Shown: in pieces, positions 35,066 through 51,974 of the stretch
How the letters are laid out: each line of letters begins with the position of its first letter
Numbering within the stretch: position 1 is the first letter of the stretch
Origin: an uncultured virus (IMG/VR IMGVR_UViG_3300032116_013561)
Taxonomy: Duplodnaviria > Heunggongvirae > Uroviricota > Caudoviricetes
Length of the DNA: 64,000 nucleotides
IMG/VR virus record: IMGVR_UViG_3300032116_013561
Direction: 5' to 3' (one strand)
Translations under genes and position numbers: made by a program
Notes under the pieces: generated by a model
Database searches by the model: none
Seen by the model: only the letters and a program-made list of their open reading frames with translations
Told to the model about the DNA's origin: nothing

Positions 35066-35338
35066 TTAAAATGCTATTGTTACTAAATCACCATCAGCTT
35101 CTATCCAACGAACTTTAAGTGCTAATAACTTTTTTAGTGTATTAGCATCAAATCTATATCCGCTACCAAAGTTACCACTTGCTTCTATATCAACAATCAT
35201 TCCGTGAATACCATCAAATATTTGAGAGTGCTTTCCACCTATGATTTTTTCAAATGCTTGAACCTGCTTTTGATGAACTGGTTTCAATTCTTTATACATC
35301 ACTTCCGATGCTTCGTTAATTTGTGTTAGCTTTATCAT
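35066..35338 (-). CDS. Putative internal head protein (MIKLTQINE leader)
   Basis: Shared leader, one residue shorter. Confidence 0.6.
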   Translation of the reverse strand: MIKLTQINEASEVMYKELKPVHQKQVQAFEKIIGGKHSQIFDGIHGMIVDIEASGNFGSGYRFDANTLKKLLALKVRWIEADGDLVTIAF

Positions 35339-35994
35339 TATTTTTTAACTTTAATTTTCCAATAAGTACCAAATCCAACATAAGGTGAGAATGAACCATT
35401 AGTTCCATCAGTAGTTCTATTGTTTACACCTAAACCAAATTGATAAATTTTATCTTTTTTAGTTTTTAAGATTAAACCAGCTCCAACTGCAGATACATAA
35501 TCTTCTTTGTTAAACCCAGCATTCAAACCATAATAAAGTTGTGCTTTTGCAGGTTCTTTAACAATAAGTTCTTCTTTGATGATTCTTTCTTTTACTTTAG
35601 CATCCCAAGTTCTACCTAATATTCTATTCTTTGTGATAGTATCCGTTAATGCAATAGTTCCCAATCCACCATCTAAAGTTAGGGTATCTTTGTAAACAAT
35701 CTTTGCTAAGTAATCTTTAAGGATTGCTGCACTATCTACATTTATCATTTCTTTAAGTACTAAAGTATCTACATCAATTACTTCATGTACAATATCTTTT
35801 CCTTTCTTAGTAACTACTTTTACTTTCTCTACTTCAACAGTATCTATCGTATGTTTTATAACTTCGTATTTTTTACCATCAATTCTGATAGTTCTTCCGC
35901 CTGGCATAACTCCACCTGGGTTAAACCATTGTAATAAAATCCAAATTACCAATGCGGCAATGGCAATGTTTTTGAAATTAACAAATTTTTTCAT
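35338..35994 (-). CDS. Membrane-anchored envelope protein with C-terminal amphipathic beta strands
   Basis: N-terminal TM (IAIAALVIWILLQWF); five D-S/T-hydrophobic sequons; C-terminal strands LYYGLNAGF, VGAGLIL, YQFGLGV, PYVGFGTYWKI. Confidence 0.6.
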   Translation of the reverse strand: MKKFVNFKNIAIAALVIWILLQWFNPGGVMPGGRTIRIDGKKYEVIKHTIDTVEVEKVKVVTKKGKDIVHEVIDVDTLVLKEMINVDSAAILKDYLAKIVYKDTLTLDGGLGTIALTDTITKNRILGRTWDAKVKERIIKEELIVKEPAKAQLYYGLNAGFNKEDYVSAVGAGLILKTKKDKIYQFGLGVNNRTTDGTNGSFSPYVGFGTYWKIKVKK

Positions 35995-36020
35995 AAGGTA
36001 TTATTTTTGTGTATAAATAT

Positions 36021-37436
36021 TTACAAAACCAATTTAGAACCAATTTGGAAGTTGTTCATAATAGTAAACTTAGGTTCTAAAGATAATACAGCCCTATAAG
36101 CTGCTGAAAATGCGAATCTTTTACTAAGTCTGAAATCATATCCACTTCCCACAACAAAACCAGGTATTCTTGTCACCAATGTTCCCTTTGTTGATGGATT
36201 GTAACTAATTGGTGAATTCATATAGAATATTTGTGGTGAAATTGTGGTTTTACGATTGATTTGGTAAGGTTTAGTCCAAAATCCCACAAATGATGTCAAC
36301 AAATTCAAATTATATTTTTGAGTCATTGGATTTTTAATTTGTAATGCAATAACACCAACATTGTATCCATAAGTTCCCCATTTAGGATGTGGTTTTACAT
36401 AGGTATATCCTAACATTTGCATCCAAGTTCCTTTCAGATACGCTGCGGTTACTGAATATGAATGAATACCATTTAATTTACCTTCTTCAAAATCCATCTT
36501 TGTCATACCACCACTAACTGCGTATTGGTCTAACGTACTCCAAATAAGTGCGGTAGCAGAATAAGATTTATCACCCATAAGAGATGATTTAGATATACCA
36601 ACACTTGCCAATGCTGCATATTTTCCTTCCATATCTTGAGTTCCTGCTAAATCTGCTGAAACTAACATAGGATTTACTGCATTCTTTCCTTTCTTTTTAT
36701 CATCCTTCTTTTCCTCTTTTTTCTCCTCTTTCTTTTCTTCCTTTTTTTCTTCGGATTTAGATTCTTCTTTCTTTTCTTCCGATTTACTTTCACTCTTTTG
36801 CTCTTCCTGCTTCTGCTCAGATTTTTGTTCACTCTTTTGTTCTGATGAAGATGATGAACTACTACTCTCCGATTTAGTTTCAGAAGATGAAGATGATGAG
36901 CTGCTTGAGCTGGATGAAGATGAACCAGAACTACTGCTAGAACTTCCAGAAGTAGTGCTTCCTGATGATGAAGATGTAGGTGGTGGTGTAGAACTAGCCG
37001 ATGAAGATGCTGCCGCTGATGCGGAACTGCTTGCTGCTGAACTTGCTGATGATGAAGCGGCTGAACTAGCAGCAGATGATGCAGCTGAACTTGCTGCCGA
37101 TGCCGCTGCTGATGCTGCTTGGGATGTTGCCTGATTTACAGTTTGGTTTACAGTTTGTTGCACCACCTGATTAGTAGGACAACCCATTGTAGAATATTGT
37201 GCGTAAACGGTTGTCAACCAAGCCTGTGTAACACCACTCATTACTTCAGTTGCAGTAAATGTTCTGACCTGATTATAGAATGATACCACATAGTTACCAT
37301 TCACCATTTGTGTTGTAACTAGCTTTAATTCACCAGTACACTTGTCCACATAGGATTGGGTATAAGTTTGCCCGCTCACATTTTGTGTGAACAGGCAACT
37401 TAATACCAATAAAAAAATACTTAGATATTTTACCAT
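36021..37436 (-). CDS. Secreted protein with Ser/Ala and Lys/Glu linker and C-terminal outer-membrane beta-barrel
   Basis: Signal peptide VSG|QTY; long low-complexity linker; about 215 aa of alternating strands ending NNFQIGSKLVL. Confidence 0.65.
   Translation of the reverse strand: MVKYLSIFLLVLSCLFTQNVSGQTYTQSYVDKCTGELKLVTTQMVNGNYVVSFYNQVRTFTATEVMSGVTQAWLTTVYAQYSTMGCPTNQVVQQTVNQTVNQATSQAASAAASAASSAASSAASSAASSSASSAASSSASAAASSSASSTPPPTSSSSGSTTSGSSSSSSGSSSSSSSSSSSSSSETKSESSSSSSSSEQKSEQKSEQKQEEQKSESKSEEKKEESKSEEKKEEKKEEKKEEKKDDKKKGKNAVNPMLVSADLAGTQDMEGKYAALASVGISKSSLMGDKSYSATALIWSTLDQYAVSGGMTKMDFEEGKLNGIHSYSVTAAYLKGTWMQMLGYTYVKPHPKWGTYGYNVGVIALQIKNPMTQKYNLNLLTSFVGFWTKPYQINRKTTISPQIFYMNSPISYNPSTKGTLVTRIPGFVVGSGYDFRLSKRFAFSAAYRAVLSLEPKFTIMNNFQIGSKLVL
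36700..37160 (-). repeat. Low-complexity coding repeats (QTVN, SSAAS, poly-Ser, EEKK)
   Basis: Visible in the translation; codons are varied, so it is not a perfect DNA tandem repeat. Confidence 0.8.
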
Positions 37437-37437
37437 T

Positions 37438-38259
37438 TTAGAAATTAAGTCCTAAACCAAATTGGACATAATCTCTAATAGGGTCAGTGTCAAACTTGAT
37501 TGTAAAGTTTTTAATGTCATACATAACACCGACCTTCGCTGTAACAAAATTTGAATTGTACTTAGGGAAAGTTATTTCACCCAAAGCATCTTTACCTCTC
37601 CATCTTACTATCTCTCTACCAGCACCTATCATTGTATGGAAGCCGGTTCTTTTGTATCGGATACCACCACCAACATAAAACGTTCTTTCTTTTTTAAGGT
37701 CTGAAATTAGTGGGAAATCTACTCTACCAATTGTACCATAAGGAAAGAAAGTAGAACGGTCAGTTGCATAAGTTGAAACAAAATCCATTATGAAATATCC
37801 TTTGTTACCAACTGCGAAATAACCACCGATTTGTTCGTTTGTTGTTTTGTGTAAACCAAAATTTATGATAGGTTTTTTACCTCTTATAGTATCTTTCCTA
37901 CCATCATTGTAAACATATACTCTTGCAGGTTGACGGTATCCCCAATCATTCCAATACCACATAGGAGTATAGAAGTTCCAACCGAAACCAGGTGCTCCCC
38001 ACATATCCCATCTATTCCAACCCCATCCCCAATTGTTCCAACCCCAAGGATTGTTGTTGATGATGATGTTTGAGCCAGGCTTTGTTTGTGGTCTATTAAA
38101 CTCTCTAGGTGATTGGTTTCTCCACATACTCATATCACTTCTCTGTCCTTGAACAGATGGAGTTGATACTCTAGGTTGTGGTGGATTAGTTCTCCAAGAG
38201 GAGACTTGAGATAATGCAACTAATGGTAGTAACATTATTAAGAATAATAGTTTTTTCAT
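37438..38259 (-). CDS. Outer-membrane beta-barrel protein with W/G/N-rich N-terminal region
   Basis: Signal peptide ALS|QVS; NNNPWGWNNWGWGWNRWDMWG tract; terminal strand YVQFGLGLNF ending in Phe. Confidence 0.7.
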   Translation of the reverse strand: MKKLLFLIMLLPLVALSQVSSWRTNPPQPRVSTPSVQGQRSDMSMWRNQSPREFNRPQTKPGSNIIINNNPWGWNNWGWGWNRWDMWGAPGFGWNFYTPMWYWNDWGYRQPARVYVYNDGRKDTIRGKKPIINFGLHKTTNEQIGGYFAVGNKGYFIMDFVSTYATDRSTFFPYGTIGRVDFPLISDLKKERTFYVGGGIRYKRTGFHTMIGAGREIVRWRGKDALGEITFPKYNSNFVTAKVGVMYDIKNFTIKFDTDPIRDYVQFGLGLNF

Positions 38260-38318: not shown

Positions 38319-39515
38319 TTAATTACCTTTTGTTGGAAATCTAGTCCATCCATTAACCCATATTGGTTTATCTAATTCAGGTATTACCACATCTATTTCC
38401 TTATTACCTTTACCTAATGCTAAAGTTTTAAGTTGTTCATTTGTTAAAATTGTGGTTGCTCTACTGATAAAGTTTAGGGTAGGATTAAATGTTCCTACTG
38501 AATTGTTTTCAAATACAGAAACACCATCTTTTACGAATTGTGCTGTTTCATTACTTTCTAAACTCAATCCACCTTTCATCCATCCCCAAATTACACTATT
38601 CTTCATTGTGAATTGAGTCCCTCTCCTAAATCTTAAACCTAAGTTATGGTTTGCTAATGCAGTTGAGGTATTAGGTCCAACTAAAATCATATTGAATAGT
38701 TTTGGATGTGTATATGGAGTTGCGGTTGAACCTGTTCCATCGTTATCACACTCAATACCATTTCCAGCATCTCCGTTATCTACAAATTGTGGGTCTCTCT
38801 TTGCCACACCATTTGTAATAGTTCCAGTATATCCAAAATCAAAGTCAAAATCATCATCTGCGGTTGCGAATGCATATAAGTTTTTAGCATTTACAGTTCC
38901 ACCAAAAAATTCAAATGCATCATCGTTAGCGTAAATAGTTTGAACATTCTCAATGATTGTTCCACTACCAACACCACCCAATGTTAGTGCGTTAATTTCG
39001 GAGTTTGGCATTGCTGCGATTCCAGCGTATTCAATTCTTACATATTTTAGAACACCACTATTATCAGCAGGTAGTGTACCACCATAAGGTCTACCAATAC
39101 CACCTTCAATAGTTGGTTCTGATGTTCTATTAGTTGGAGCTATACCCAATATTACAATACCACCCCAATCACCAGGTGCTTTCTCACCATCTGGTTTTCC
39201 TGATGTAAATACGATTGGCTTTTGTGCAGTTCCTTCCGCAATTATTTGTGCACCTCTTTCGATACACAATGCACCCTTTTCAGCAACATCAGATACAATC
39301 TTTGTACCCGGTTGAATTCTTAATTGTGAACCATTTGTGATATAAACATATCCTTTTAATATCCACACTTTATCTGCGGTTAGTGTGATAGTTTCTTTGT
39401 ATGTTCCACTTAATGTTGTTGAAAGGGGAACATTTACAGGCGGTTCATATCCACCTAAATTTTTTTCGCAACTGAATAATCCTAAGATTAAAATAAGTCC
39501 TAATAATTTTCTCAT
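38319..39515 (-). CDS. Beta-helix lipoprotein, partner of the TonB-dependent receptor
   Basis: Lipobox LFS|C; IQPGT, AEGTAQKPIVFTS, PGDWGGIVILG, DNSGVLKYVRIEYAG, DDAFEFFGG, DDDFDFDFGY; ATGA-coupled to the receptor gene. Confidence 0.75.
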   Translation of the reverse strand: MRKLLGLILILGLFSCEKNLGGYEPPVNVPLSTTLSGTYKETITLTADKVWILKGYVYITNGSQLRIQPGTKIVSDVAEKGALCIERGAQIIAEGTAQKPIVFTSGKPDGEKAPGDWGGIVILGIAPTNRTSEPTIEGGIGRPYGGTLPADNSGVLKYVRIEYAGIAAMPNSEINALTLGGVGSGTIIENVQTIYANDDAFEFFGGTVNAKNLYAFATADDDFDFDFGYTGTITNGVAKRDPQFVDNGDAGNGIECDNDGTGSTATPYTHPKLFNMILVGPNTSTALANHNLGLRFRRGTQFTMKNSVIWGWMKGGLSLESNETAQFVKDGVSVFENNSVGTFNPTLNFISRATTILTNEQLKTLALGKGNKEIDVVIPELDKPIWVNGWTRFPTKGN

Positions 39516-41764
39516 AGTGTTAAATTTAATGTTAATGAAATTGTTTGTTCGTTGTTTGTTTTTATCAAATTTCGTTTTGTTTGTAACTTTTGATAATAAA
39601 CCGATGGTTGTGCAAGTATATCTGCTACCGCAAATTTAAGTTCTCCTTTTTTTAATTTATGTAGAAACACAATATCTATTACATCTCTAGCGTTTTCAAA
39701 AATATCAGAGTAACCTTGGAAACCAACTGCTGATATTCTATCTCCAACTCTATTATATGAAATATTTAATGTTTCATTTTTCTTATGTATGTTTATACCA
39801 GAATTAATAACATAGTTTGATTGTCCTTGCAATTGTCTTCTAATTCCATTTGCATTTACTTGCGAATTCATTACCGAAGTGTTTGTATAAAAATCAAACC
39901 AACCATTTATCTTTTTTCTGATTTCCAATTCTACACCATATATTGTTGCTTGTTTTGGATTTGTGTAAGTTAAAAGAAGATTGGAAGGAACTGAACCATC
40001 CGCTACTATTTGTTCAATTGGATTTACAAAGTTTTTACCAAACGCAGAAATGAATATACTTTCTTTATTTGATGGATAGTATTCCCATTTAAGGTCTACA
40101 TTATAGATGTCAGATTTTTTAAGATTTGAATTACCCAATAATTGTGCGTTTCTTACAAAATCATAATAAGCAAAATTAGCCACTTCTCTAAATTCAGGTC
40201 TTGCTAATGTTTTACTCATTGAAAATCTATACTTACTTTTTTCTTCGTTGTATGAAAGATTTAATGAAGGTAACAAATCCAAATACTCTCTATCTACATT
40301 TATTTGTATTCCGCTAAAATCAGATGTATTAACTCTAAAGATATTATATTCAGTTCTCAATCCACTATTCAATTTCCATTTACCCCACTCACCATCATAC
40401 ATTACATAACCATTACCTAAATCAAAATCTGCGGTGTATCTATCGGTGTTGTTTGTTATTTCATCCAACATATCAACTGCGGTATATCTAAAAACTCTTG
40501 CGTTAAATCCTCTAATCTTTTTTAGATAACCACCACCAACTTTTATCTTACCAAAATCTTTGTTAATGTTACCATTCATTCCGTTCTCATCCATAATTGA
40601 CCAGAAACGATATGTGTCTCTCCATGCGGTTGCATATGGTTCGTTTACACCCAATGATTTTGTAATTGGATTAACTCTATAATCAGGTTGTTCTCTAAAA
40701 ATAAAATTATATCCTACATTAAAATCCCATGTCTTAATCTTACCGTCTAATTGTGAATTAAGAACAAAGTTGCGGATATGATTAGAAGAATTACTTAATA
40801 CATTCTGAACATTATCATAGTTCTCACCAACTCTATTCATATACGAGTCATCAGTTTGATAACTTACTAATGTTTTCCAACTATATCGGTTTTCACCCAA
40901 ATAAGTTAAGTTAAGTAATCCATTTGCTTGAAATCTTTTTGAGTAAAGTGTATCTTTGTAATCGTATGCCAATTCAGTTGAAGATTGATAATCAGTTCTT
41001 TCAATATAGTTTAGATTGAATGAGTTTCGTATTGTAGAACTAAGTAAAGCATTAAACTTACCCTTCTTATATCCAAATGAAAGTGCTCCATTTGTATTAA
41101 GTGGAGATGTAAACCCTTCGGTTGTTGGTGAACCTATTAACTTTGTAAATGCTCTCCTTTCAATGTTTGGGCTTATTCGGAAACGATAAGTGGATGGGAA
41201 TGTGGAAGGAAATTCAGTAGCTTGAACTAACTTAAAATCTTTAAGAGATGAAACCGAACCCCAACCACTTCCCAATGAGATATTGAAAAAATTGTTGGAA
41301 ACTTCTTTTGTAGAAACTTGCACCAATCCACCACTCCAATCACCAGGTAGATTTGCTGAAGCTGATTTAGCTATGATTATATTATCAATTAGGGATGTAG
41401 GAATTATATCAAATGAAAATGCTCTCCTATCTGGTTCGGTTGATGGCAGTAGAGTTTTATTTAACATAGCAGAATTGTAACGGTCTGCTAATCCTCTTAC
41501 CAATACAAACTTATCGTTTTGAATAGTAACACCGCTTACTCTTTTAAGTGCATCACCAACGGTTCTATCGGGTGTTTTTTTAATAAACTCAACTGATAAT
41601 CCATCGGATACTACATTTGAATTACGAATACTTCTTACAATGGATGCTTCGGTTATCCTTTGACCGGCAGATTTTACAGTCACTTCTGAAAGGACTTTGT
41701 TAAATAATGTATCTTGCGAAAATGTTGATAAAGGTAGTAACAGAAATAAAAGAAACGCTCTCAT
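39512..41764 (-). CDS. TonB-dependent outer-membrane receptor (750 aa)
   Basis: Signal peptide TFS|Q; TonB-box-like LSEVTVK; plug PDRTVGDALKRVSGVTI...VRGLADRYN...FDIIPTSLIDNIII; barrel motifs GLRTEY, LLPSLNLSY, TLARPEFRE, GNSNLK, NVDLKWEYYP, GVELEIRK. Confidence 0.92.
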   Translation of the reverse strand: MRAFLLFLLLPLSTFSQDTLFNKVLSEVTVKSAGQRITEASIVRSIRNSNVVSDGLSVEFIKKTPDRTVGDALKRVSGVTIQNDKFVLVRGLADRYNSAMLNKTLLPSTEPDRRAFSFDIIPTSLIDNIIIAKSASANLPGDWSGGLVQVSTKEVSNNFFNISLGSGWGSVSSLKDFKLVQATEFPSTFPSTYRFRISPNIERRAFTKLIGSPTTEGFTSPLNTNGALSFGYKKGKFNALLSSTIRNSFNLNYIERTDYQSSTELAYDYKDTLYSKRFQANGLLNLTYLGENRYSWKTLVSYQTDDSYMNRVGENYDNVQNVLSNSSNHIRNFVLNSQLDGKIKTWDFNVGYNFIFREQPDYRVNPITKSLGVNEPYATAWRDTYRFWSIMDENGMNGNINKDFGKIKVGGGYLKKIRGFNARVFRYTAVDMLDEITNNTDRYTADFDLGNGYVMYDGEWGKWKLNSGLRTEYNIFRVNTSDFSGIQINVDREYLDLLPSLNLSYNEEKSKYRFSMSKTLARPEFREVANFAYYDFVRNAQLLGNSNLKKSDIYNVDLKWEYYPSNKESIFISAFGKNFVNPIEQIVADGSVPSNLLLTYTNPKQATIYGVELEIRKKINGWFDFYTNTSVMNSQVNANGIRRQLQGQSNYVINSGINIHKKNETLNISYNRVGDRISAVGFQGYSDIFENARDVIDIVFLHKLKKGELKFAVADILAQPSVYYQKLQTKRNLIKTNNEQTISLTLNLTL

Positions 41765-41837
41765 AAAGTTATTTTAGGTTAGTTCCCCAATAACTATGAA
41801 AGCGTTTCTCTAAATTGGTTATTTTAATATTAAGAAA

Positions 41838-45183: not shown

Positions 45184-45232
45184 AGTTTACTTATTTAGTT
45201 TATTAATGTAACCTATGCGTAACTGATTTATA

Positions 45233-45904
45233 TTACCCTGCTTGTTCAGCATCTTCGTCTTTTATCTTTCCACATTTCAAACATTCTTCATCACCATCAC
45301 CATCTTTATCACCCCAAATGTGTTCACACTGTCTATGTGCGAAATAAACATCAATCTTACCATCACCATCAAAGTCAATACCATCCATTACACCATCACC
45401 ATCTTCATCAACTTCTACACCAGTTCTACCTGCTTTTGGAGTTGGAGCGGTTACAGCGTCTGTAATTTGTGATTCAACTTTTTCTTCTTTTGGTTTGTTA
45501 GCTTCTATTAGATTGATTTCATGTGCATGATTTGCAGCTTGGACAAATGCATCTGGAATAAGTGGAGTTGTAGGTTTGTTACTTTCCTTCATATCGTTTG
45601 TATGTGAAAGTGAAGTTCCATCTTCCTCATCCATTTTCTGAACTAACATCTTATCTTTATCGGTATCACTAAACCAGTAATCTATGATTTTACCATAACT
45701 ACCAATGAAAGCACCTAATAATAATAAAAGAAGTTCTTTCCATTCACCTGCAATTTCGGATTTCATAAATATAGCCCCGAACATTCCTGCCATTATAAAC
45801 ATAAACCCACCTAATACCAATGCGGTAATCCACCATCTTCTTTTCATCATTGAATTAAGAAGGTCCTTAAAGCCGCTTGGTGGTTGTTGATTATTCTCTG
45901 CCAT
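45233..45904 (-). CDS. Two-TM holin-like protein with DxDGDG calcium-binding loops and a Cys/His motif
   Basis: TMs WWITALVLGG and LLLLLGAFIGSYGKIIDYWFS; DEDGDG, DFDGDG, DKDGDG; CEH...CLKC. Start refined to MAENNQQ. Confidence 0.55.
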   Translation of the reverse strand: MAENNQQPPSGFKDLLNSMMKRRWWITALVLGGFMFIMAGMFGAIFMKSEIAGEWKELLLLLLGAFIGSYGKIIDYWFSDTDKDKMLVQKMDEEDGTSLSHTNDMKESNKPTTPLIPDAFVQAANHAHEINLIEANKPKEEKVESQITDAVTAPTPKAGRTGVEVDEDGDGVMDGIDFDGDGKIDVYFAHRQCEHIWGDKDGDGDEECLKCGKIKDEDAEQAG

Positions 45905-45995
45905 TTTCTTTTCGTATTCTTTCGTTATTTGCATGATTCATAGCCCATAATAAGAAGGCTATGAAAAATAATGTAACCCCAATTTTATATCCCAT
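45891..45995 (-). CDS. Micro membrane protein (34 aa, missing from ORF track)
   Basis: MGYKIGVTLFFIAFLLWAMNHANNERIRKENGRE; starts 3 nt after the upstream stop. Confidence 0.45.
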   Translation of the reverse strand: MGYKIGVTLFFIAFLLWAMNHANNERIRKENGRE

Positions 45996-45998
45996 ATA

Positions 45999-46316
45999 TT
46001 ACCACTCAGCTGGTTTCTCTTTGAACTCATCACCATCTTTCTTTTTAGGTGCTGGAGCTGCAGCTGGTTTTTCTACAACTTTTTCTCTTTCAATGATTTT
46101 AGTTGTTCCACCTGCTGATTGAGATTGCTGGTTAGAATTTGTGATGTTGATTACGGGTGCTGCTGCAGGTGCAGGAGCTGCTTCATCTCCACCGCCTGTG
46201 ATTTTTGTTACACCCCAAGTACCTAAGCCCATAACCGCTGTTGTTGCAACACCGATTATTGTTTTCTTCAAACCAGACCAAGTACCATCATTTGTGCTTT
46301 CTACTTCTTCTGACAT
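45999..46316 (-). CDS. Single-TM protein with Ala/Pro-rich tail
   Basis: IIGVATTAVMGLGTWGV hydrophobic segment; AAPAP repeats. Confidence 0.6.
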   Translation of the reverse strand: MSEEVESTNDGTWSGLKKTIIGVATTAVMGLGTWGVTKITGGGDEAAPAPAAAPVINITNSNQQSQSAGGTTKIIEREKVVEKPAAAPAPKKKDGDEFKEKPAEW

Positions 46317-46343: not shown

Positions 46344-46718
46344 TTATAACTTATTAAAATCGGTAATACCTAACATTTTACCATTTGCATCGTATAGAGC
46401 TATTCTATATGCTGATGCTGGAAATGCATTAGTATAAACCTTTAATATATTATCACCGGTGTTTGCGTACATTGTTTCTTTAGATACTACTCTATTTGCA
46501 ATATCAAAGATTTTAATTGTTACGTTTTGTCCAGCTTCTAACTTTACGTTAATAGCCACTTCTGAAGTTACGAATACTGATTGTAGTTTCAAACCAGAAG
46601 CCGCTGCCATTTTTAGTTCCTCATTTGGATTTACAACTGGTGGTTGTGGATAAATATCTAATTTTCTACAGCCAACAATTAATAGTGCTCCAAACAATAC
46701 TAATAATAATTTTTTCAT
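46344..46718 (-). CDS. Lipoprotein made of a T9SS type A CTD-like domain
   Basis: Lipobox IVG|CRKLD; VTIKIFDIANRVVSKE...GDNILKVYTNAFPASAYRIALYDANG. Confidence 0.65.
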   Translation of the reverse strand: MKKLLLVLFGALLIVGCRKLDIYPQPPVVNPNEELKMAAASGLKLQSVFVTSEVAINVKLEAGQNVTIKIFDIANRVVSKETMYANTGDNILKVYTNAFPASAYRIALYDANGKMLGITDFNKL

Positions 46719-46731
46719 TTTTTGTTTGTTT

Positions 46732-47079
46732 TTAATTAATTATCAGTAACGTTTTACCTACTTCAACACTATTCTGGTCCTCTAAGGTCAGATATAAATA
46801 TTTAATAGGTAGTGATTTAGTATAAAGTTTTAGTGTATTTAATCCAGTTTTTCCAATTATTCTTTCTCGGGCCACAACTTGCTGGCCAACTGAATCAAAT
46901 AAAGTAAGTGTATAGACCCCTTCGGTCTTTAGATTGAACTTGATTTGTTCACCATTTCCAATAGATGTTTCTTTAACAGAGAATATATCAGATGGAGCAG
47001 GTGGTGGGGTTGGGACTACATCTAATTTTCTACATCCCCATATTGAAATTAAAAATAATATCGTTAAAAGGTATCTCAT
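46732..47079 (-). CDS. Paralogous lipoprotein made of a T9SS CTD-like domain
   Basis: Lipobox IWG|CRKLD; YTLTLFDSVGQQVVARE...GLNTLKLYTKSLPIKYLYLTLED...KTLLIIN. Confidence 0.6.
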   Translation of the reverse strand: MRYLLTILFLISIWGCRKLDVVPTPPPAPSDIFSVKETSIGNGEQIKFNLKTEGVYTLTLFDSVGQQVVARERIIGKTGLNTLKLYTKSLPIKYLYLTLEDQNSVEVGKTLLIIN

Positions 47080-49658
47080 TATTGTATTCTTATTTTAATA
47101 GTTTTACCATCTTTATTTACCGCTTCGTTTCCAGCAATAGAAACCAAACCTAAAGAGTTATCCAATTGTTGTTTTAATTTGAACGTAAGTTGATATTCGG
47201 TAGTACCATCTAATAATTCACCACCAGTATTAAGAGAACCTAAATTAATAAATGTTCCTCTATCATTTGCGAAGTTTATAGGTGAGCCTGTTGTTTTGTA
47301 TTTTGTTGAAGATAACGTAATTAAAGAGTTATCATAATTTATTTGGAATTGAGTACCAACAATAGAATTTATATTTGGATTGAATTTAATAGTTGCAATT
47401 AAACTATCTCCAACTATTTGCGAGATAATATATGCAGTTGGTTCACCATTTACACTCATACTTCTTTCACCAAAGTTTGCTGACATTGTTGTTATACCAT
47501 TTGAAGGTGGAGTTGCTGAGTGTGATAAGTTTACATCACCTTTCCAAGTTACTGCTAAATTGTATGTGTAATTTATTTTACCATCCAATAAACTGAATCC
47601 ATACTCTTTACCTAAATAAGATGGAAAATCTTTCCAATTAGATTTACCAATAGTTGCATAAGTTGAATCTAAAACTATTTTCATTGTATTATCCAATGTG
47701 TAGTTATCCACTAAGTTTTTAGCACCTGTTAAGTTTTGTAATAATCTAAAACAATCCGCTTCATTGAATACACCATTATCATCAATATCCGCATTTTTGA
47801 ATTGCATACCATAAGTGAATTGCGTTCCACTACCACCACCAAATATACCACCAGCTTCTGCCAATTCCTTAAATGCTAAATAAACATCCGATACAGTAAC
47901 TATACTATTGTAAAGTGTTTTAAGTTGTACTGAATCATAATTTTGAAATTGGAATTTATGTTGTTTGTAAGTACCATTTTGTGCAAAAGAAATATTAGAC
48001 ATAAAAGCCCAATTATTATTTCCAGCATTTCTTATTGATGAATTAAATGCCGAAGTTCCATCGGTAACTTTTGTAAGTGTTGATGGAACAACATAATGTG
48101 CCCAATATGCAGATGTTTGTTGATATGTTACAGGCCCATCATAACAATCCAATATTTTAACTTTAGATATTGTTGATGGTTGTGTACTTCCAAATCTAGT
48201 TAAATCAATATAAAGAGTTGTAACACCATTTGAAATATTAACATAAGAAAATTCTGCTTGTCCAGTTGTTATGGTTGCTTTGTAGGATGATGGTTCGTTT
48301 ACAAATTGATAACTCAATCCCCATGCTCCCCAACTATCTGATGTTACACCATTTTGTGTTGATGCTGGATAATCATTTAATCCCTCAACTATTTTAATGT
48401 AAACATCTTTTGTTTGTCCGGCAGTTATTACCCCAGCATGCACAGCTGCTTTTGGAATATATGAATCGTTTGTGTATATGTTTGTTCCCCAAATTGTACC
48501 ACCTGTATTACCTGTTATGGTCATTTTGTATATCTTACCTATATCGGTTTCACTATATGCAGTCATATCATTTGCGGTTGCTATTGATATTGCAGATGAA
48601 AATAGTTTTGCAGTATCTAATTGTTCAGAAAGAGTTACTCTACCTAAACCATTTAATGTTTTATATGTATTTCCCGTCCATGCCGATGTGGAGTTGTTTC
48701 TTTTGAATATCGTTCCTAAAAATTTAGTTTCATCAATATTACCACCAAAGTTAAAATTAAATTGACCTACCAAATTTAAGTTAGGTCCATTTGTATTAAT
48801 AACACTATTATTGTAGAATTCAGTAAAAGTTTGGTCATCAGGATTTGTCCATGTTCCATACTCAATTACATACGGATTATTATAGTTAGAATTCAAATCG
48901 TTCCATTGAGAACCACCCCATTTAGTTACCGCATAATCTTCGTTTCCACCCCAGTTATTTGGTTCACCACCTGCCCAATTGTTATAAACACCTTGCTGAT
49001 TTGTTGTACCTATTCTTACGATAGTACCTTTTTCAGGTCCATCATCTATTCTCCAAGTTCCTTCGGTTATTGAATCCGTTAATGCAAACCATATGTTAGA
49101 TTGTGGTACATTATTAAAAATAAATAAATCCTCATCTGAAGAAGTTATAGTTACCAAATACCCTCTTTGCCCTTTGAATGTTGTTGCAGCTGCGTTTATT
49201 TTAGATTGTGAATAAAACACACCGGTTGATATTGGTCTATAAAAGTGTCCATTTGTTGGAAGATAAAAATATCCAGTTGGGTTTACAGTTGCAGATACCG
49301 ATATTTGAACATTACCTGCGGTACCTGTTGTGTTTACTTTTAGAGATGCTAATGCGTTGTTAATGTTAGCTTGAGTACCCGTAAAAGTTAAACGAGTTTT
49401 ATTACCGGTCAAAGTATATCCAATGGATGCGGTAAGACCCGTTGTAGTTGTTATGTAAAACGTAGTTCCAGTTGGAGCAACAGGTAAACCAATAGCACAT
49501 AGTAAAACATCAGTAGAATTAAATCCACTTAAACTAAAACCGCTTGCATTTTGTGCAGATGTGTTTACCGTAAACTCTTTAGGGTCTGGTGCATTTACCT
49601 GCTGACCAAACCCTAAAGATACAATTAAAGATAATAATAGTGTTAATAATATTCTCAT
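47079..49658 (-). CDS. Secreted adhesin-like protein: Ig/cadherin-like, C-type lectin, LCCL, dockerin-like and cohesin-like domains
   Basis: Signal GFG|Q; FTGTQANINNALASL; NGHFY...GYLVTITS...NNWAGGEPNN...WND; IWGTNIYTNDSYIPKAAVHAGVI; VTVSDV...ADIDDNGVFNEAD; GDVNLSHS; GTQFQINYDNSLI. Confidence 0.75.
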   Translation of the reverse strand: MRILLTLLLSLIVSLGFGQQVNAPDPKEFTVNTSAQNASGFSLSGFNSTDVLLCAIGLPVAPTGTTFYITTTTGLTASIGYTLTGNKTRLTFTGTQANINNALASLKVNTTGTAGNVQISVSATVNPTGYFYLPTNGHFYRPISTGVFYSQSKINAAATTFKGQRGYLVTITSSDEDLFIFNNVPQSNIWFALTDSITEGTWRIDDGPEKGTIVRIGTTNQQGVYNNWAGGEPNNWGGNEDYAVTKWGGSQWNDLNSNYNNPYVIEYGTWTNPDDQTFTEFYNNSVINTNGPNLNLVGQFNFNFGGNIDETKFLGTIFKRNNSTSAWTGNTYKTLNGLGRVTLSEQLDTAKLFSSAISIATANDMTAYSETDIGKIYKMTITGNTGGTIWGTNIYTNDSYIPKAAVHAGVITAGQTKDVYIKIVEGLNDYPASTQNGVTSDSWGAWGLSYQFVNEPSSYKATITTGQAEFSYVNISNGVTTLYIDLTRFGSTQPSTISKVKILDCYDGPVTYQQTSAYWAHYVVPSTLTKVTDGTSAFNSSIRNAGNNNWAFMSNISFAQNGTYKQHKFQFQNYDSVQLKTLYNSIVTVSDVYLAFKELAEAGGIFGGGSGTQFTYGMQFKNADIDDNGVFNEADCFRLLQNLTGAKNLVDNYTLDNTMKIVLDSTYATIGKSNWKDFPSYLGKEYGFSLLDGKINYTYNLAVTWKGDVNLSHSATPPSNGITTMSANFGERSMSVNGEPTAYIISQIVGDSLIATIKFNPNINSIVGTQFQINYDNSLITLSSTKYKTTGSPINFANDRGTFINLGSLNTGGELLDGTTEYQLTFKLKQQLDNSLGLVSIAGNEAVNKDGKTIKIRIQ

Positions 49659-51316
49659 TATTCAATTACAAGTTCTACTTTCTTTCCATTAGCATCTACC
49701 GCATCGGCTAACACAAAGAAGAATAAACCTGCAGTGTTGCTTAATGGAACTTTTGGATTAAATATTAATTTATATGGAGTACCAGTTTTGATTCTAGCTG
49801 TCTTTTGTTGGTCAATAGAACCAAATGTCAATCTACCATTATCCTTTGTTGAGAAGTTTGTGATAGTTGAACCAGAATCAAATATGATATTTTCCAAATC
49901 TAATTTTGTTGAATCGTAGTTCATAATAACTTGCAAACCTGCTAAACCTTCTTTAGTTAAGTTTGTGGTAAGAACTACTTTACCATTTTGTATTGTAGAT
50001 GCTACACCCAATTTAACTTCTTCTAATACAGACTCATTATAAGAGTTACTCATATTAGATGTCATAGCCATAGTTTTAATTTCACCAATTGTTAAATCGT
50101 TTGATTTATTAGTAAAGATACCAGCTGCTATTCTTGATGCGATTGTATCAGGATGAGATGAATGTGACCAATCTAAGTCACCACCCCATGCGAATACAGC
50201 ATCTACAGTTTGTGTAGGTTGTGTCACATAAACTCTATATTTTGAAGTACCATCTAACCAACTTTGATTTAATAAACCACTATGCCATCTCCAAGAAGTT
50301 GCGGTAGAAGTTGGAATGAAAGCGTTTGCTGATACATCAACTCCCATTACATGCGCAAATGAATAGTATGCATCTGCTTCAGTAAATACGGCATCGTTCT
50401 TAGTAATATTACCAACTTTCTTTTCTAAGTTTGGTCTTGTGAAGTAAGTAGTGTTACCACTTAAATCAGTTTGTGAAATACCTAAGAATGATTTATATGC
50501 ATCAGATACAGTCACCACATTATTCATCCAAGTCTTAGATGATGCATTTGCTACAAATACGCCTAAACTATCACCAACTCTGATACCTGATGTAAATATT
50601 GCTTCACCACTACCATCTAATGCTCTTTGTGCAATAGGTTGTTGTGACCAATCTATATCACCAGTACCATCGGTTTTTAATCTCATTAATTGAACGTTAT
50701 GGTCACCAATGTTATATCCAGAAGGGAATAGAACTCTTACTTTGAAATAAGAAGTATTACCAGTTACACCAGTTATTGTTGTTGGACCAGCTGTTGTTCT
50801 AATGAATGGAATATTTGCTCCACTAGCACTATCAGTTGCGTAAGATAGGTTTAACTTAAAAATACCAGCATAAGTGTTTTGGTCTTTAAGAATATACTTT
50901 TGAGTTGCCACTACACCATTTACGCTTTGGTCTACTCTTTGAACTGCAATCTGTCCAACATTCCAATCGTTGTTTACAGCATATCCCCAAGGTGTAGAGC
51001 CATATTGTGCATATAAAGATGTATCTGCGATGTTTGCAGCTGCAGTAAACTTATAGTTGTTCCAACTTGTGTAATAAGTTTGTGATTGATTACCCTGTGA
51101 GAAGGTTGTGGAAACATAAGTTAAAGCCTTATTATTGTAGTCATATCTTAACCAAAAATAACGTGGCTTAGTTGTTCCCTTATCTACCGTATAAGTTACA
51201 GTGATTGTATCCCCTACTCTATAAGGTCCTGCTGAAACTGATTGGTTGACAATTATTTGAGCTTTTGCTGCAAAGCTTATTAAAACTGCCGCTACTAAGG
51301 TTAATATTCTTTTCAT
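49658..51316 (-). CDS. Secreted protein: cohesin-like, dockerin-like, cohesin-like
   Basis: Signal MKRILTL...AKA|Q (start refined to 51316); LRYDYNNKALTYVST; VTVSDA...GNITKNDAVFTEAD; GGDLDWSHS; GLAGLQVIMNYDSTKLDL. Confidence 0.7.
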   Translation of the reverse strand: MKRILTLVAAVLISFAAKAQIIVNQSVSAGPYRVGDTITVTYTVDKGTTKPRYFWLRYDYNNKALTYVSTTFSQGNQSQTYYTSWNNYKFTAAANIADTSLYAQYGSTPWGYAVNNDWNVGQIAVQRVDQSVNGVVATQKYILKDQNTYAGIFKLNLSYATDSASGANIPFIRTTAGPTTITGVTGNTSYFKVRVLFPSGYNIGDHNVQLMRLKTDGTGDIDWSQQPIAQRALDGSGEAIFTSGIRVGDSLGVFVANASSKTWMNNVVTVSDAYKSFLGISQTDLSGNTTYFTRPNLEKKVGNITKNDAVFTEADAYYSFAHVMGVDVSANAFIPTSTATSWRWHSGLLNQSWLDGTSKYRVYVTQPTQTVDAVFAWGGDLDWSHSSHPDTIASRIAAGIFTNKSNDLTIGEIKTMAMTSNMSNSYNESVLEEVKLGVASTIQNGKVVLTTNLTKEGLAGLQVIMNYDSTKLDLENIIFDSGSTITNFSTKDNGRLTFGSIDQQKTARIKTGTPYKLIFNPKVPLSNTAGLFFFVLADAVDANGKKVELVIE

Positions 51317-51317
51317 A

Positions 51318-51974
51318 TTATTTTGCTTTTCCACCGAATAGCTTAGTAATCAACTTATCCGATGCTTTTTTAAGTGCGTTAGATAATGAAGTTTGATTGA
51401 ATTTACCACCCTGGTCTACAATAAGTGTGGACATTGATATTTCAGATGAAGATTCTTCAACTACAACTTCTTTTTCTTTTTTGCCATCTTTGTAAAGTAT
51501 TCCCTGTAAACGAACAACCACTTCTTCTTCTCCTTTATGGAATACTGAAATGTTTGTCTTTGTAGATAGAACATCCAAATACACAATATTAACTTTTAAT
51601 TTATATTGTGCATTTTCATTTAGGTCATATCCTTTTTCTTGAAGGAATTCCTCTAAGATATTTTTAACACCAAATGCCAAATTTCTATTGCCGGCTAGCT
51701 TACCAATTTTAACTTGGTTGTCTACACCTTCAACCCAAATGTGGTCTTCGGCTTGGTAATTAATGTTCGCAGGATTATCGGAAAACCTGCCATCAAAACG
51801 AATTGTTAGTTCGTGTGTAATTTTGTCAATTAGTTGTTCATTACCTGAGAAGGTTAAGAACACCATAAAAACTTGGAACAGGAATGCTAAACCTATGAAG
51901 GTAAGCACACCAGTAAGAAACGCTTTGAACAAAAACTCTTTTAAGTTCAAAACCTGAGATTTAATGTATTGCAT
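51318..51974 (-). CDS. Membrane-anchored CsgG/TolB-N-like fold protein
   Basis: N-terminal TM; GVKNILEEFL and KFNQTSLSNALKKA parallel GVANIVLEYL and KFNQSTISISTKKA in the CsgG-like protein. Confidence 0.5.
   Translation of the reverse strand: MQYIKSQVLNLKEFLFKAFLTGVLTFIGLAFLFQVFMVFLTFSGNEQLIDKITHELTIRFDGRFSDNPANINYQAEDHIWVEGVDNQVKIGKLAGNRNLAFGVKNILEEFLQEKGYDLNENAQYKLKVNIVYLDVLSTKTNISVFHKGEEEVVVRLQGILYKDGKKEKEVVVEESSSEISMSTLIVDQGGKFNQTSLSNALKKASDKLITKLFGGKAK

What the first reader, a model, noticed from the sequence alone, without database searches (positions are those of the whole stretch)
35338..51974. A lytic-type phage carries a 16.6 kb outer-membrane remodelling module under phage late-type control
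Seen: about 17 genes encode envelope-directed or associated proteins. These are a TonB-dependent receptor with lipoprotein, two further beta-barrels, two CsgG-like proteins, two T9SS-CTD-like lipoproteins, two cohesin/dockerin-like secreted proteins (one with C-type lectin and LCCL domains), small TM proteins and a DUF2589 pair. The block is woven into phage grammar: the ATATTTAT motif that precedes tail genes also precedes six of its transcription units, and the CsgG-like gene and the 35338 gene are TAATG-coupled to putative head-protein genes. Inference: the phage builds its own surface apparatus on the infected Bacteroidota cell, for adhesion/aggregation, nutrient capture or superinfection exclusion. 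I know of no characterised phage system with this composition, but I could not search.
Basis: partly seen in the sequence, partly recalled or inferred. Interest (0 to 1): 0.92.

Follow-up and report, generated by a model that had tools for sequence, protein, structure and literature searches.

The report
Phage-borne phosphate importer plus envelope genes
A large lake phage of Bacteroidota carries a patchwork of exported proteins whose conserved core is an outer-membrane importer and its surface lid copied from the hosts' phosphate-starvation genes, so it probably helps infected cells scavenge phosphorus.

Summary
Window 35338-51974 lies in a T4-like phage, and 13 of its 20 ORFs carry export or membrane signals against 3 of 50 outside. 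It is not one co-inherited machine.

The universal core is the TonB-dependent transporter (39512-41764) and its downstream beta-helix lipoprotein (38319-39515). They are paired in 55 of 55 testable phage loci and in 67 of 69 cellular Bacteroidota loci. The closest cellular copies (65-70% identity) are in Aquirufa, beside a PHO4 transporter, a phosphodiesterase-type gene and an OprP-type porin. The architecture matches the phosphate-starvation-induced Fjoh_0545/0546 pair of Flavobacterium johnsoniae (PMC8115612). A TTAAC-N6-TTAAC repeat precedes the cellular and many phage copies; the window's site is degenerate. The pair has no phage promoter motif. A complex model supports the lipoprotein capping the barrel (0.77; best control 0.00).

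A separate lectin/cohesin/CsgG-fold module recurs in about 15 of 50 loci and in cultured Flavobacterium phage immuto, which has no transporter.

Confirmed: one OmpX-type barrel, one CsgG-fold protein. Unproven: a second of each.

This scan reached both readings earlier on other genomes, and a 2026 preprint reports outer-membrane proteins in huge phages.

The parts
39512..41764 (-). TonB-dependent transporter, 750 aa: signal peptide, TonB-box-like LSEVTVKS, plug and 22-strand-type barrel. It lacks the N-terminal CarboxypepD_reg domain of the cellular copies.
   Evidence: Pfam Plug + OMP_b-brl_3. NCBIfam TonB-Xanth-Caul 164 bits, below its cut-off of 310. 65% identical over 727 aa to the 847-aa Aquirufa protein, which has the extra domain. 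72 viral loci at 65-100% identity. dN/dS 0.09-0.17 in 7 pairs.
38319..39515 (-). Surface 'lid' lipoprotein, 398 aa, pectate-lyase-like beta-helix; overlaps the transporter gene's end by 4 nt.
   Evidence: ESM Atlas 0.98 to Beta_helix_4 (PF28492) clusters of Bacteroidota. Lipobox kept in 42 of 42 distinct orthologs. 69-70% identical to Aquirufa. Complex model 0.77 against 0.00. dN/dS 0.10-0.31.
41818..41833 (-). Degenerate Pho-box-like direct repeat TTAAT-N6-ATAAC (2 mismatches to TTAAC-N6-TTAAC) in the 73-nt gap upstream of the transporter. The gap has no ATATTTAT motif.
   Evidence: Same position as the <=1-mismatch sites of relatives L023, L066 and L007. The repeat occurs in 12 of 45 viral and 28 of 63 cellular upstream regions against 0.01-0.02 per 150 nt of background, and also upstream of PHO4 in 5 of 5 Aquirufa loci.
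42681..43409 (-). Secreted CsgG-fold protein, 242 aa, Sec signal without a lipobox.
   Evidence: 53% identical to immuto gp017. Present in 16 of 50 full-upstream loci.
37438..38259 (-). Secreted protein, 273 aa: disordered Trp-rich N-terminal half and a C-terminal 8-stranded OmpX/Ail-type outer-membrane barrel ending in ...GLGLNF.
   Evidence: Present in 16 of 49 loci with at least 6 kb downstream.
36021..37436 (-). Secreted 471-aa protein: Ser-rich and Lys/Glu-rich linker plus a conserved 222-aa C-terminal domain; a barrel fold is not shown.
   Evidence: 9 of 15 distinct orthologs end in Phe. 417 unannotated relatives. DUF5777 in 1 of 10 members. N-terminal part 28% identical to immuto gp018.
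35338..35994 (-). N-terminally anchored or secreted 218-aa protein of unknown fold; TAATG-coupled to the next gene.
47079..49658 (-). Secreted 859-aa protein: C-type lectin (EPN...WND seen in the sequence), LCCL, and a C-terminal region of about 290 aa shared with the next protein.
   Evidence: Lectin part 35% identical to immuto gp013.
49658..51334 (-). Secreted 558-aa protein with a C-terminal cohesin-like domain.
   Evidence: Cohesin 24.8 bits against a cut-off of 24.1. C-terminal homology to the 859-aa protein, E 2e-11. No PDB sequence match.
46344..47079 (-). Two paralogous small lipoproteins (124 and 115 aa) with a beta-sandwich-like domain.
   Evidence: 33% identical, E 3e-16. DUF3244 and Por_Secre_tail hits are below their cut-offs.
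51318..51974 (-). Membrane-anchored 218-aa protein, YajG-like/CsgG-like status unresolved.
   Evidence: 30% identical to immuto gp019.
44923..46316 (-). Three small membrane proteins (86, 233 and 105 aa).
   Evidence: Hydropathy. The 105-aa protein matches immuto gp016.
43470..44589 (-). DUF2589 pair (158 and 204 aa); no export signal; function unknown.
   Evidence: Only 6 of 50 full-upstream loci. No PADLOC match.
44664..44867 (-). 67-aa zinc-ribbon-like protein, cytoplasmic.
   Evidence: Weak zinc-ribbon hits below the cut-offs.
41838..42681 (-). Three small non-exported ORFs (163, 40 and 80 aa); two start with MI[KS]L..IL.E, like T4 capsid-targeting sequences (a recalled comparison).
   Evidence: The 80-aa gene is absent in a natural variant (joint 42437>42680 in 3 runs).
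36012..36020 (-). ATATTTATA promoter-like motif 18 nt upstream of start 35994. Further copies at 38279-38287, 43425-43433 and 44882-44890; the 8-mer occurs at 44632-44639.

Best explanation
The block is a composite accessory island in a large T4-like freshwater phage of Bacteroidota. It is not one apparatus.

(1) Conserved core. The core is an outer-membrane TonB-dependent transporter and the beta-helix lipoprotein encoded after it. The two were taken as a unit from an Aquirufa-like (Cytophagales) host lineage, where the same pair belongs to the phosphate-starvation gene set. After Sec and Lol export in the infected cell, the lipoprotein is inferred to cap the extracellular face of the barrel. 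The pair would then use host TonB energy to import a phosphorus-containing substrate, whose identity is unknown. This would feed nucleotide synthesis for a large genome, much as cyanophage pstS does. In many relatives the pair keeps the host-type TTAAC direct repeat, probably a PhoB operator. Expression would therefore follow the host's phosphate sensing, not the phage motif. In this window the repeat is degenerate.

(2) Envelope module. A second, independent module holds two secreted lectin/cohesin proteins, two paralogous lipoproteins, small membrane proteins, a CsgG-fold protein and partners. It is inferred to dress the infected cell's envelope with sugar-binding scaffolds. Its purpose is unknown; adhesion or aggregation, or superinfection exclusion, are the candidates.

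(3) Other genes. An OmpX-type barrel, a DUF2589 pair and probable head-internal proteins lie between them as variable genes.

Shown: homology, synteny, selection, motif statistics, predicted folds and a predicted interface. Inferred: export, substrate, regulation and benefit to the phage.
For: Pairing: the lipoprotein follows the transporter in 55 of 55 viral loci with at least 1300 nt downstream and in 67 of 69 testable cellular loci.

Origin: all 42 distinct viral lipoproteins form one group (SH-aLRT 97) that is sister to 10 Aquirufa/Flectobacillaceae rows (joint branch 100). Identity to Aquirufa is 65-70%.

Phosphate link in cells: in Aquirufa L075 the order is cassette, Metalloenzyme/Phosphodiest gene, PHO4, Porin_O_P, with a glycosyltransferase and a Metallophos gene nearby. 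Among 138 downstream neighbours, PHO4 and/or Metalloenzyme genes occur in 9 loci, polyphosphate kinase in 2, pyrophosphatase in 2, Phosphoesterase in 1, and HisKA kinases in 8. For all 8 kinases the PnpS and PhoR models rank in the top four, all below their cut-offs.

Literature (passages read): Fjoh_0545 (PF07715 + PF13715 + PF14905) and the pectin-lyase-fold lipoprotein Fjoh_0546 lie in the phoBR cluster and are induced by phosphate depletion (PMC8115612). BT4056, 40% identical to Fjoh_0546, is proposed as a lid of its transporter (10.1101/2023.03.17.533168).

Operator: TTAAC-N6-TTAAC with at most 1 mismatch is in 28 of 63 cellular and 12 of 45 viral upstream regions, against 0.0195 and 0.0105 per 150 nt of background. 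It also sits upstream of PHO4 in 5 of 5 Aquirufa loci and resembles the cyanobacterial Pho box PyTTAAPyPy(T/A) quoted in PMC10976474.

Function kept in phages: dN/dS 0.09-0.31 in 7 pairs; signal peptide in 39 of 39 transporters; lipobox in 42 of 42 lipoproteins.

Binding: ipSAE 0.77 (runs 0.72, 0.77, 0.83) against 0.00 for the best of 3 controls. That mark was reached by 116 of 157 solved complexes and 2 of 215 mismatched pairs. The runs agree in at least 79% of contacts and the partner's pLDDT is at least 90. Contacts fall on segments of the barrel spaced about 55-60 residues apart.

Modularity; immuto gp013-gp019.
Against: No experiment exists for the phage genes. The substrate of the cellular pair is also unknown.

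The window's own upstream repeat has 2 mismatches, and only 12 of 45 viral regions pass at 1 mismatch. I defined the repeat after seeing the data. [quoted passage not shown]

The window's transporter lacks the N-terminal CarboxypepD_reg domain, as do 18 of 39 distinct phage copies. Whether such forms still work is unknown.

I did not compare the phage proteins with Fjoh_0545/0546 directly, because those sequences were not held.

Only the 80 cellular loci most like the phage protein were kept out of 446, so Flavobacteriales are missing from the tree and from the context counts. In many cellular loci the downstream neighbours have no phosphate link. None of 8 other phage neighbourhoods showed phosphate genes.

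Contigs from RNA libraries hold parts of the block, but they cannot show transcription.

The complex used my own alignments, so the calibration counts hold only roughly.

The envelope genes might lie elsewhere in genomes where they are absent from the +/-10 kb flanks.
Confidence: 0.7

Rival explanations
1. One integrated phage-built surface apparatus. All of about 17 products assemble into a single machine for adhesion, capture or exclusion, expressed together late in infection.
For: The genes are contiguous and co-directional, with export signals in 13 of 20 ORFs. A shared promoter-like motif heads 4-5 units. The closest relatives (for example L010, L066, L004) keep nearly the whole block.
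Against: Parts occur independently. The pair is in 55 of 55 testable loci, but the lectin/cohesin/CsgG-like genes lie within 10 kb upstream in 14-16 of 50, and the DUF2589 pair in 6 of 50. None of five envelope genes lie near the pair in 23 of 28 loci with both flanks. Immuto has the envelope genes without the transporter. The pair sits in other neighbourhoods elsewhere: baseplate, thyA, primase. The pair has no phage motif upstream. Non-envelope genes are interleaved.
Confidence: 0.1
2. The transporter pair serves superinfection exclusion or receptor masking, not nutrition. The phage copy replaces or blocks a host surface receptor used by competing phages.
For: The 2026 preprint on huge phages proposes this for phage outer-membrane proteins, citing Lom blocking LamB (10.64898/2026.10.24.761521; passages read). 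18 of 39 phage copies have lost the N-terminal domain. The neighbouring OmpX-type barrel is of the same structural class as Lom (that Lom belongs to this class is recalled).
Against: The plug, the TonB-box-like segment and the whole lid interface are conserved under purifying selection. A passive decoy would not need these. The host-type repeat upstream fits nutrient control.
Confidence: 0.12
3. The pair imports something other than phosphorus (iron, a vitamin, a glycan), and its link to phosphate genes is only by neighbourhood.
For: TonB-dependent transporters carry many substrates. The lipoprotein has a pectate-lyase-like fold, and PMC8115612 discusses glycan binding. Many cellular neighbours are unrelated to phosphate.
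Against: The F. johnsoniae counterpart by architecture is induced by phosphate depletion (PMC8115612, passages read); the same paper describes several P-responsive loci as tightly repressed under N and Fe limitation. The same repeat precedes PHO4. PhoR-like kinases, polyphosphate kinase and pyrophosphatase recur next to the cassette.
Confidence: 0.07
4. Assembly artefact: host DNA joined to a phage contig.
For: The pair is 65-70% identical to cellular genes.
Against: 72 viral loci from many samples carry it inside phage genes, on contigs up to 326 kb. G+C is even at 0.28-0.37 across the window. DNA contigs with zero mismatches bridge both borders. The viral copies form one clade apart from cells.
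Confidence: 0.01

Closest known systems
Fjoh_0545 (TonB-dependent transporter) and Fjoh_0546 (lipoprotein 'FII') in the phoBR cluster 'PUSIV' of Flavobacterium johnsoniae (PMC8115612); BT4055/BT4056 of Bacteroides thetaiotaomicron (10.1101/2023.03.17.533168)
   Same: Transporter with Plug + OMP_b-brl_3 domains, followed by a pectin-lyase-fold lipoprotein. Cellular relatives lie beside an OprP-type porin, PhoR-like kinases, a glycosyltransferase and phosphate transporters. The lipoprotein is proposed as a lid.
   Different: This pair is encoded by a phage. The window's copy lacks the CarbopepD_reg_2 domain. Direct sequence comparison with the Fjoh or BT proteins was not done. Induction by low phosphate is untested.
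Cyanophage pstS/phoA under control of the host PhoBR system (PMC10976474, passages read; the original P-SSM2 work is cited there and was not read)
   Same: A phage-carried copy of a host phosphate-starvation uptake gene with a putative Pho box upstream; the idea of hijacking the host regulator.
   Different: That gene encodes a periplasmic binding protein of an ABC system in cyanobacteria. Here it is an outer-membrane TonB-dependent transporter plus lid in Bacteroidota. PhoB binding is not shown here.
[quoted passage not shown]
   Same: Phage-encoded outer-membrane proteins with signal peptides. Some from aquatic phages neighbour phosphate-acquisition genes.
   Different: In the passages I read, the preprint does not describe this transporter-lid pair, its PHO-regulon origin or the repeat.
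csgG/csgF 'curli' cluster of pelagimyophages (PMC7029224, passages read)
   Same: A phage-encoded CsgG-type protein in a variable region; function unknown; aggregation ('sibling capture') proposed.
   Different: Here there is no Pfam CsgG match, no lipobox, and no CsgF or curlin partner. The partners are lectin/cohesin proteins, and the hosts are Bacteroidota.
Flavobacterium phage vB_FspM_immuto gp013-gp019 (NC_055915.1)
   Same: A contiguous set of a C-type lectin protein, a cohesin-domain protein, a small membrane protein, a CsgG-like protein (53% identical) and two further homologs.
   Different: Shorter proteins, no transporter pair, no DUF2589 pair. The genes are annotated mostly as hypothetical. 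My search listing for the phage's name showed no paper on these genes.
Lambda Lom and the Ail/OmpX 8-stranded barrels
   Same: A small 8-stranded outer-membrane barrel encoded by a phage (fold match).
   Different: No sequence-family match. It has an added 126-residue disordered Trp-rich N-terminal part. That Lom belongs to this family is recalled, and its exclusion role is taken from the preprint's text.

Membership tests
PHO-regulon transporter + 'FII' lid lipoprotein pair (PUSIV type) | Transporter with Plug and OMP_b-brl_3 domains | tested here: met
   E 1.6e-7 and 2.6e-24
PHO-regulon transporter + 'FII' lid lipoprotein pair (PUSIV type) | N-terminal CarbopepD_reg_2 domain (PF13715), as in Fjoh_0545 | tested here: not met
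   Absent from the window's 750-aa copy. Pfam finds it in the four longer phage copies scanned (L045, L028, L009, L038) and in Aquirufa. By length, 21 of 39 distinct phage copies are 824-845 aa and 18 are 747-752 aa.
PHO-regulon transporter + 'FII' lid lipoprotein pair (PUSIV type) | Pectin-lyase-fold lipoprotein encoded directly downstream | tested here: met
   4-nt overlap; lipobox; ESM Atlas 0.98 to Beta_helix_4 clusters. The fold was not checked with a model of its own.
PHO-regulon transporter + 'FII' lid lipoprotein pair (PUSIV type) | Cellular relatives linked to phosphate genes | tested here: met
   The link is clear in Aquirufa and several Chitinophagaceae/Sphingobacteriaceae loci, but not in all loci.
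PHO-regulon transporter + 'FII' lid lipoprotein pair (PUSIV type) | Sequence homology to Fjoh_0545/Fjoh_0546 themselves | not tested
The match rests on domain architecture and context as described in PMC8115612.
PHO-regulon transporter + 'FII' lid lipoprotein pair (PUSIV type) | Induction by phosphate depletion | not testable with these tools
   Only a candidate operator is seen.
PHO-regulon transporter + 'FII' lid lipoprotein pair (PUSIV type) | Lipoprotein binds the outer face of the barrel | tested here: met
   Model only: 0.77 against a best control of 0.00; the mark was reached by 116 of 157 solved and 2 of 215 mismatched pairs; contacts agree in at least 79%; partner pLDDT at least 90.
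CsgG curli channel (type VIII secretion) | CsgG fold | tested here: met
   Foldseek top hits CsgG 4uv2/4uv3, E 3.5e-5, probability 1.00, but TM only 0.33-0.41 on a model of pLDDT 63.
CsgG curli channel (type VIII secretion) | Match to Pfam CsgG (PF03783) | tested here: not met
   No family at E <= 0.01.
CsgG curli channel (type VIII secretion) | Lipoprotein signal (that CsgG is lipidated is recalled) | tested here: not met
   Signal peptide ends ...VLHAQT with no Cys. There is no conserved N-terminal Cys in 13 orthologs.
CsgG curli channel (type VIII secretion) | CsgF/CsgE/curlin partners nearby | tested here: not met
   No such Pfam, NCBIfam or PHROG hit among the 21 scanned proteins of the block and its upstream flank.
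Ail/OmpX/Lom 8-stranded barrels | 8-stranded membrane barrel fold | tested here: met
Ail/OmpX/Lom 8-stranded barrels | Sequence-family match | tested here: not met
   Pfam gives only a weak DUF2756 hit in the signal region.
T4-type late promoter | TATAAATA upstream of late genes on the gene strand (consensus recalled) | tested here: not met
   2 gene-strand occurrences in 64 kb. The enriched motif is ATATTTAT(A).
T9SS C-terminal sorting domain | Por_Secre_tail match above the cut-off, at the C-terminus of a secreted protein | tested here: inconclusive
   18.8 bits (cut-off 27) and 19.1 bits (cut-off 23) in one of the two lipoproteins.
Cohesin-dockerin | Cohesin and dockerin family matches | tested here: inconclusive
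   Cohesin 24.8 bits against 24.1 in the 558-aa protein only. No dockerin family matched. A DxDxNG-like segment was seen by eye only.

The most novel reading that the evidence does not exclude
The lectin/cohesin/CsgG-fold genes form a new phage-encoded surface-display system. A ring of the CsgG-fold protein, with the membrane-anchored partner and the small lipoproteins, would export or anchor self-associating cohesin scaffolds that carry a mannose-type lectin. Infected Bacteroidota cells would then stick to algae, particles or sibling cells. Meanwhile the Pho-controlled importer feeds the infection. Together they would be a two-part phage programme for starving, dilute lake water.
Probability: 0.15. 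Interest if true: 0.85.

Novelty: new variant of a known kind. Interest (0 to 1): 0.6.

Why it matters
Phage genes that boost phosphorus uptake are known from cyanophages (pstS, phoA). This finding would extend the principle to Bacteroidota, to the outer membrane and to a TonB-powered transporter with its lid. It implies that lake phages take part in scavenging phosphorus compounds.

The pair is common: 72 viral loci, and DNA in 16 runs from 10 studies. The cellular system itself has no known substrate, so the well-conserved phage copies offer a compact version to study.

The separate envelope module is unexplained, but it can now be tested in a cultured Flavobacterium phage.

Tried and rejected
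- Own assembly: not held. The nearest record, G001, is a 31.9-kb fragment.
- Megablast of the block against phage records: no match.
- PHROGs: almost nothing for the block.
- PADLOC: no match for 15 proteins.
- PDB by sequence: nothing for the lipoprotein, the CsgG-like protein, the 558-aa protein, or the profiles of the 35338 protein and the 471-aa C-terminal domain.
- hhalign: the 35338 protein and the 471-aa protein against the confirmed barrel gave no relation. The second 'CsgG-like' protein against the first gave probability 21% only.
- Homology search with the 471-aa C-terminal profile: 417 relatives at E <= 0.001; the 120 listed have no name beyond 'hypothetical protein' and no Pfam domain.
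- Other phage neighbourhoods of the pair (8 loci, 73 proteins): no phosphate genes.
- T4-type TATAAATA as the promoter: rejected.
- RNA evidence: contigs of two RNA libraries cover 28 and 25 of 30 bins. Contigs cannot show transcription, strand or level, and parts without cover mean nothing. A joint 35059>42299 in RNA contigs has only 28 letters on its shorter side and is not trusted.
- Papers: searches for phage-encoded TonB-dependent receptors, and for a phage phosphate link in Bacteroidota, found only the 2026 preprint. The name search for phage immuto listed papers on other topics.
- Not done: the sigma-like reading of 52530-53252 got only a weak SigF hit (E 1.4e-3) and nothing at a stricter threshold; I did not pursue it. 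There is no structure model of the lipoprotein or the transporter alone, because both fold jobs went to the CsgG-like protein and the barrel.

Full report
CONTEXT. All 70 main ORFs of the window lie on the minus strand, and G+C is even at 0.28-0.37. PHROG scans of the flanks find baseplate wedge subunits, a tail-fibre-like giant protein, an SbcCD-like nuclease, primase, thymidylate synthase, PhoH, Hsp20 and homing endonucleases. The window is therefore part of a large T4-like phage. The window's own assembly is not held.

THE OBSERVATION.
- Pfam confirms the TonB-dependent receptor (Plug, OMP_b-brl_3), the DUF2589 pair, and the C-type lectin and LCCL domains. The cohesin match is borderline. 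The Por_Secre_tail/DUF3244 and Lipoprotein_16 hits are below their cut-offs.
- A simple hydropathy and lipobox rule finds export or membrane signals in 13 of 20 block ORFs against 3 of 50 outside (p = 6e-7).
- The motif is real but is read on the gene strand. ATATTTAT occurs 22 times there and once on the other strand. ATATTTATA occurs 13 times, all on the gene strand, against 5.1 expected on both strands.
- The motif sits 15-31 nt before 12 start codons, often just after a hairpin and a T-run. Among the genes it precedes are the 2520-aa tail-fibre gene and a unit that leads into the baseplate genes. It also precedes the unit at 13447, which leads into the primase and SbcCD genes. It is thus a phage-wide promoter-like element and not a proven late one. 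T4's TATAAATA (consensus recalled) is rare on the gene strand.
- Both TAATG overlaps are present.

NOT A CHIMERA. The transporter gene has relatives at 65-100% identity in 72 viral loci, on contigs up to 326 kb. DNA runs of two studies cover all 30 bins, and zero-mismatch contigs bridge both borders.

NOT ONE MODULE. I ran tblastn of every window protein against the 73 loci.
- The lipoprotein follows the transporter in 55 of 55 loci with enough downstream DNA.
- The lectin, cohesin, small-lipoprotein and CsgG-like genes lie within 10 kb upstream in 14-16 of 50 loci.
- The DUF2589 pair does so in 6 of 50.
- The barrel genes lie downstream in 15-18 of 49.
- In 23 of 28 loci with both flanks, none of five envelope genes are near the pair.
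- Elsewhere the pair lies next to baseplate, thyA or primase genes.

WHAT THE PAIR IS.
- The lipoprotein matches pectate-lyase-like beta-helix clusters of Bacteroidota.
- A profile scan of one genome per species found 446 cellular relatives. The best, at 69-70%, are Aquirufa species.
- In 67 of 69 testable cellular loci a homolog of the transporter lies directly upstream on the same strand. No other block protein has a homolog within 8 kb of the cellular cassette.
- In Aquirufa the cassette is followed by a Metalloenzyme/phosphodiesterase gene, a PHO4 phosphate transporter and a phosphate-selective porin.
- Elsewhere it neighbours PhoR-like kinases, polyphosphate kinase, pyrophosphatase or a phosphoesterase. 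Many loci show no such neighbour.
- This matches the description in PMC8115612 of the F. johnsoniae phoBR cluster: a transporter with PF07715 + PF13715 + PF14905 (Fjoh_0545) and a pectin-lyase-fold lipoprotein 'FII' (Fjoh_0546). Both are strongly induced by phosphate depletion, and they sit beside OprP, PhoR, PhoB and a glycosyltransferase (passages read).
- A preprint proposes the B. thetaiotaomicron homolog BT4056 as a lid of its transporter and relates it to the secreted Caulobacter lipoprotein ElpS.

ORIGIN AND RETENTION. In a tree of 42 viral and 62 cellular lipoproteins, the viral rows form one group (SH-aLRT 97) that is sister to the Aquirufa/Flectobacillaceae rows (joint branch 100). 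This fits one old capture from that lineage. The cellular sample was limited to the 80 loci most like the phage protein. For seven divergent pairs, dN/dS is 0.09-0.17 for the transporter and 0.10-0.31 for the lipoprotein. Of 39 distinct full-length phage transporters, 21 are 824-845 aa, the length of the copies in which Pfam finds the N-terminal CarboxypepD_reg domain. The other 18, including the window's, are 747-752 aa and lack it: their signal peptide joins directly to QDTLF[NS]K and a TonB-box-like LSEVTV[KR]S (the TonB-box consensus is recalled).

REGULATION.
- The 73-nt gap upstream of the window's transporter has no ATATTTAT motif.
- Aquirufa upstream regions carry three to four [TC]TAAC repeats at an exact 11-bp period.
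- TTAAC-N6-TTAAC with at most one mismatch occurs in 28 of 63 distinct cellular and 12 of 45 distinct viral upstream regions, 41-140 nt before the start. Background is 0.02 and 0.01 per 150 nt.
- The same repeat lies directly upstream of PHO4 in 5 of 5 Aquirufa loci.
- It resembles the cyanobacterial Pho box PyTTAAPyPy(T/A) quoted in PMC10976474. That paper also warns that such predictions in phages are unreliable.
- The window's site (41818-41833) has two mismatches at the orthologous position.
- I defined the repeat after seeing the data. It is a candidate PhoB operator and is not shown to be one.

LID BINDING. I folded the barrel (residues 160-750) and the mature lipoprotein with their alignments. 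The score was 0.77 (runs 0.72, 0.77, 0.83) against 0.00 for the best of three controls. That mark was reached by 116 of 157 solved complexes and 2 of 215 mismatched pairs. The runs agree in at least 79% of contacts, and the partner's pLDDT is at least 90. Contacts recur about every 55-60 residues along the barrel, as successive extracellular loops would. The model supports binding but does not show it, and my own alignments make the calibration counts approximate.

THE OTHER GENES.
- 42681-43409 has a CsgG-like fold. It has no Pfam CsgG match, no lipobox and no CsgF or curlin partner, so I do not file it as a curli channel.
- 37438-38259 is an OmpX/Ail-type 8-stranded barrel behind a disordered Trp-rich region.
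- The two large secreted proteins share a C-terminal region of about 290 aa (E 2e-11).
- The lectin domain matches DC-SIGN-type domains and shows EPN...WND (the meaning of that signature is recalled).
- The two small lipoproteins are paralogs.
- Six window proteins have homologs in one 6-kb stretch, gp013-gp019, of cultured Flavobacterium phage immuto. Immuto has no transporter hit.
- Pelagimyophage csgG/csgF clusters are the nearest published case, and their function is also unknown (PMC7029224, passages read).
- The second 'CsgG-like' protein, the 471-aa protein's barrel and the 35338 protein remain unresolved.

PRIOR WORK. [quoted passage not shown] These include a TonB-dependent receptor in Lak phages, and phosphate-acquisition genes beside such proteins in aquatic phages. 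It favours superinfection exclusion as their role (passages read). My searches found no paper describing this transporter-lid pair in phages. I looked at the earlier notes of this scan only after forming my reading. They describe the same importer pair and the same envelope module on many other genomes. They are not independent evidence.

VERDICT. The island is real and common but composite. Its best-supported part is a host-derived phosphate-starvation importer with its lid. The envelope module is a separate, unexplained and testable system.

Noticed in passing
window starts 33782, 34403, 34717, 35064, 35338, 42329, 42681 (minus strand): Seven small proteins begin with MI[KSL]L..[IL].E, which resembles the capsid-targeting sequence and protease site of T4 internal proteins (a recalled comparison). 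They may be head-packaged proteins. Two of them interrupt the envelope genes.
   Followed up: partly
window upstream of starts 53542 and 60370: TATATTTG, matching the Bacteroidota sigma-A -7 box TAnnTTTG (recalled), precedes non-structural genes. This suggests host-type promoters alongside the ATATTTATA class.
   Followed up: no
window 52530-53252: A 240-aa protein just upstream of the block has only a weak SigF-like hit (E 1.4e-3). It may be a phage sigma-like factor for the ATATTTATA motif; this is untested.
   Followed up: partly
window 42437-42680: A natural variant lacking the 80-aa gene appears as the same joint, with the letters TTA in between, in one DNA run and two RNA-library runs. 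This matches the gene's presence in only 6 loci.
   Followed up: partly
L041:9974-11716: In a 183-kb phage contig the transporter gene is truncated to 580 aa while the lipoprotein gene is intact.
   Followed up: partly
L019:5628-8903 and L044:6534-9872: Some relatives carry a second large outer-membrane protein (OMP_b-brl_4 + CarboxypepD_reg, about 1100 aa) just upstream of the pair. The same family follows the cellular cassette in Pelobium locus L103.
   Followed up: no
L019:15582-16127: A Tad3 anti-Thoeris homolog (E 2e-36) lies 3 kb downstream of the pair in a 221-kb relative.
   Followed up: no
window 52085-52115: The ATATTTAT copy 124 nt upstream of start 51974 lies in the loop of a GGGTATCTAA/TTAGATACCC hairpin. 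It looks more like a terminator than a promoter.
   Followed up: no
window 57512-58855 and 60754-61302: Two further lipoprotein-type signals lie outside the block. The first protein has a weak Rz-like spanin hit and an internal membrane segment.
   Followed up: no
LR745206.1:77559-79697: A 635-kb uncultured megaphage record encodes a TonB-dependent receptor 27% identical to the window's. It is a separate case of a phage-borne receptor.
   Followed up: no
L075:4802-5257: In Aquirufa a small DUF3244-like protein (E 4e-4) lies just upstream of the cellular cassette. The phage's two small lipoproteins give a weak hit to the same family.
   Followed up: no
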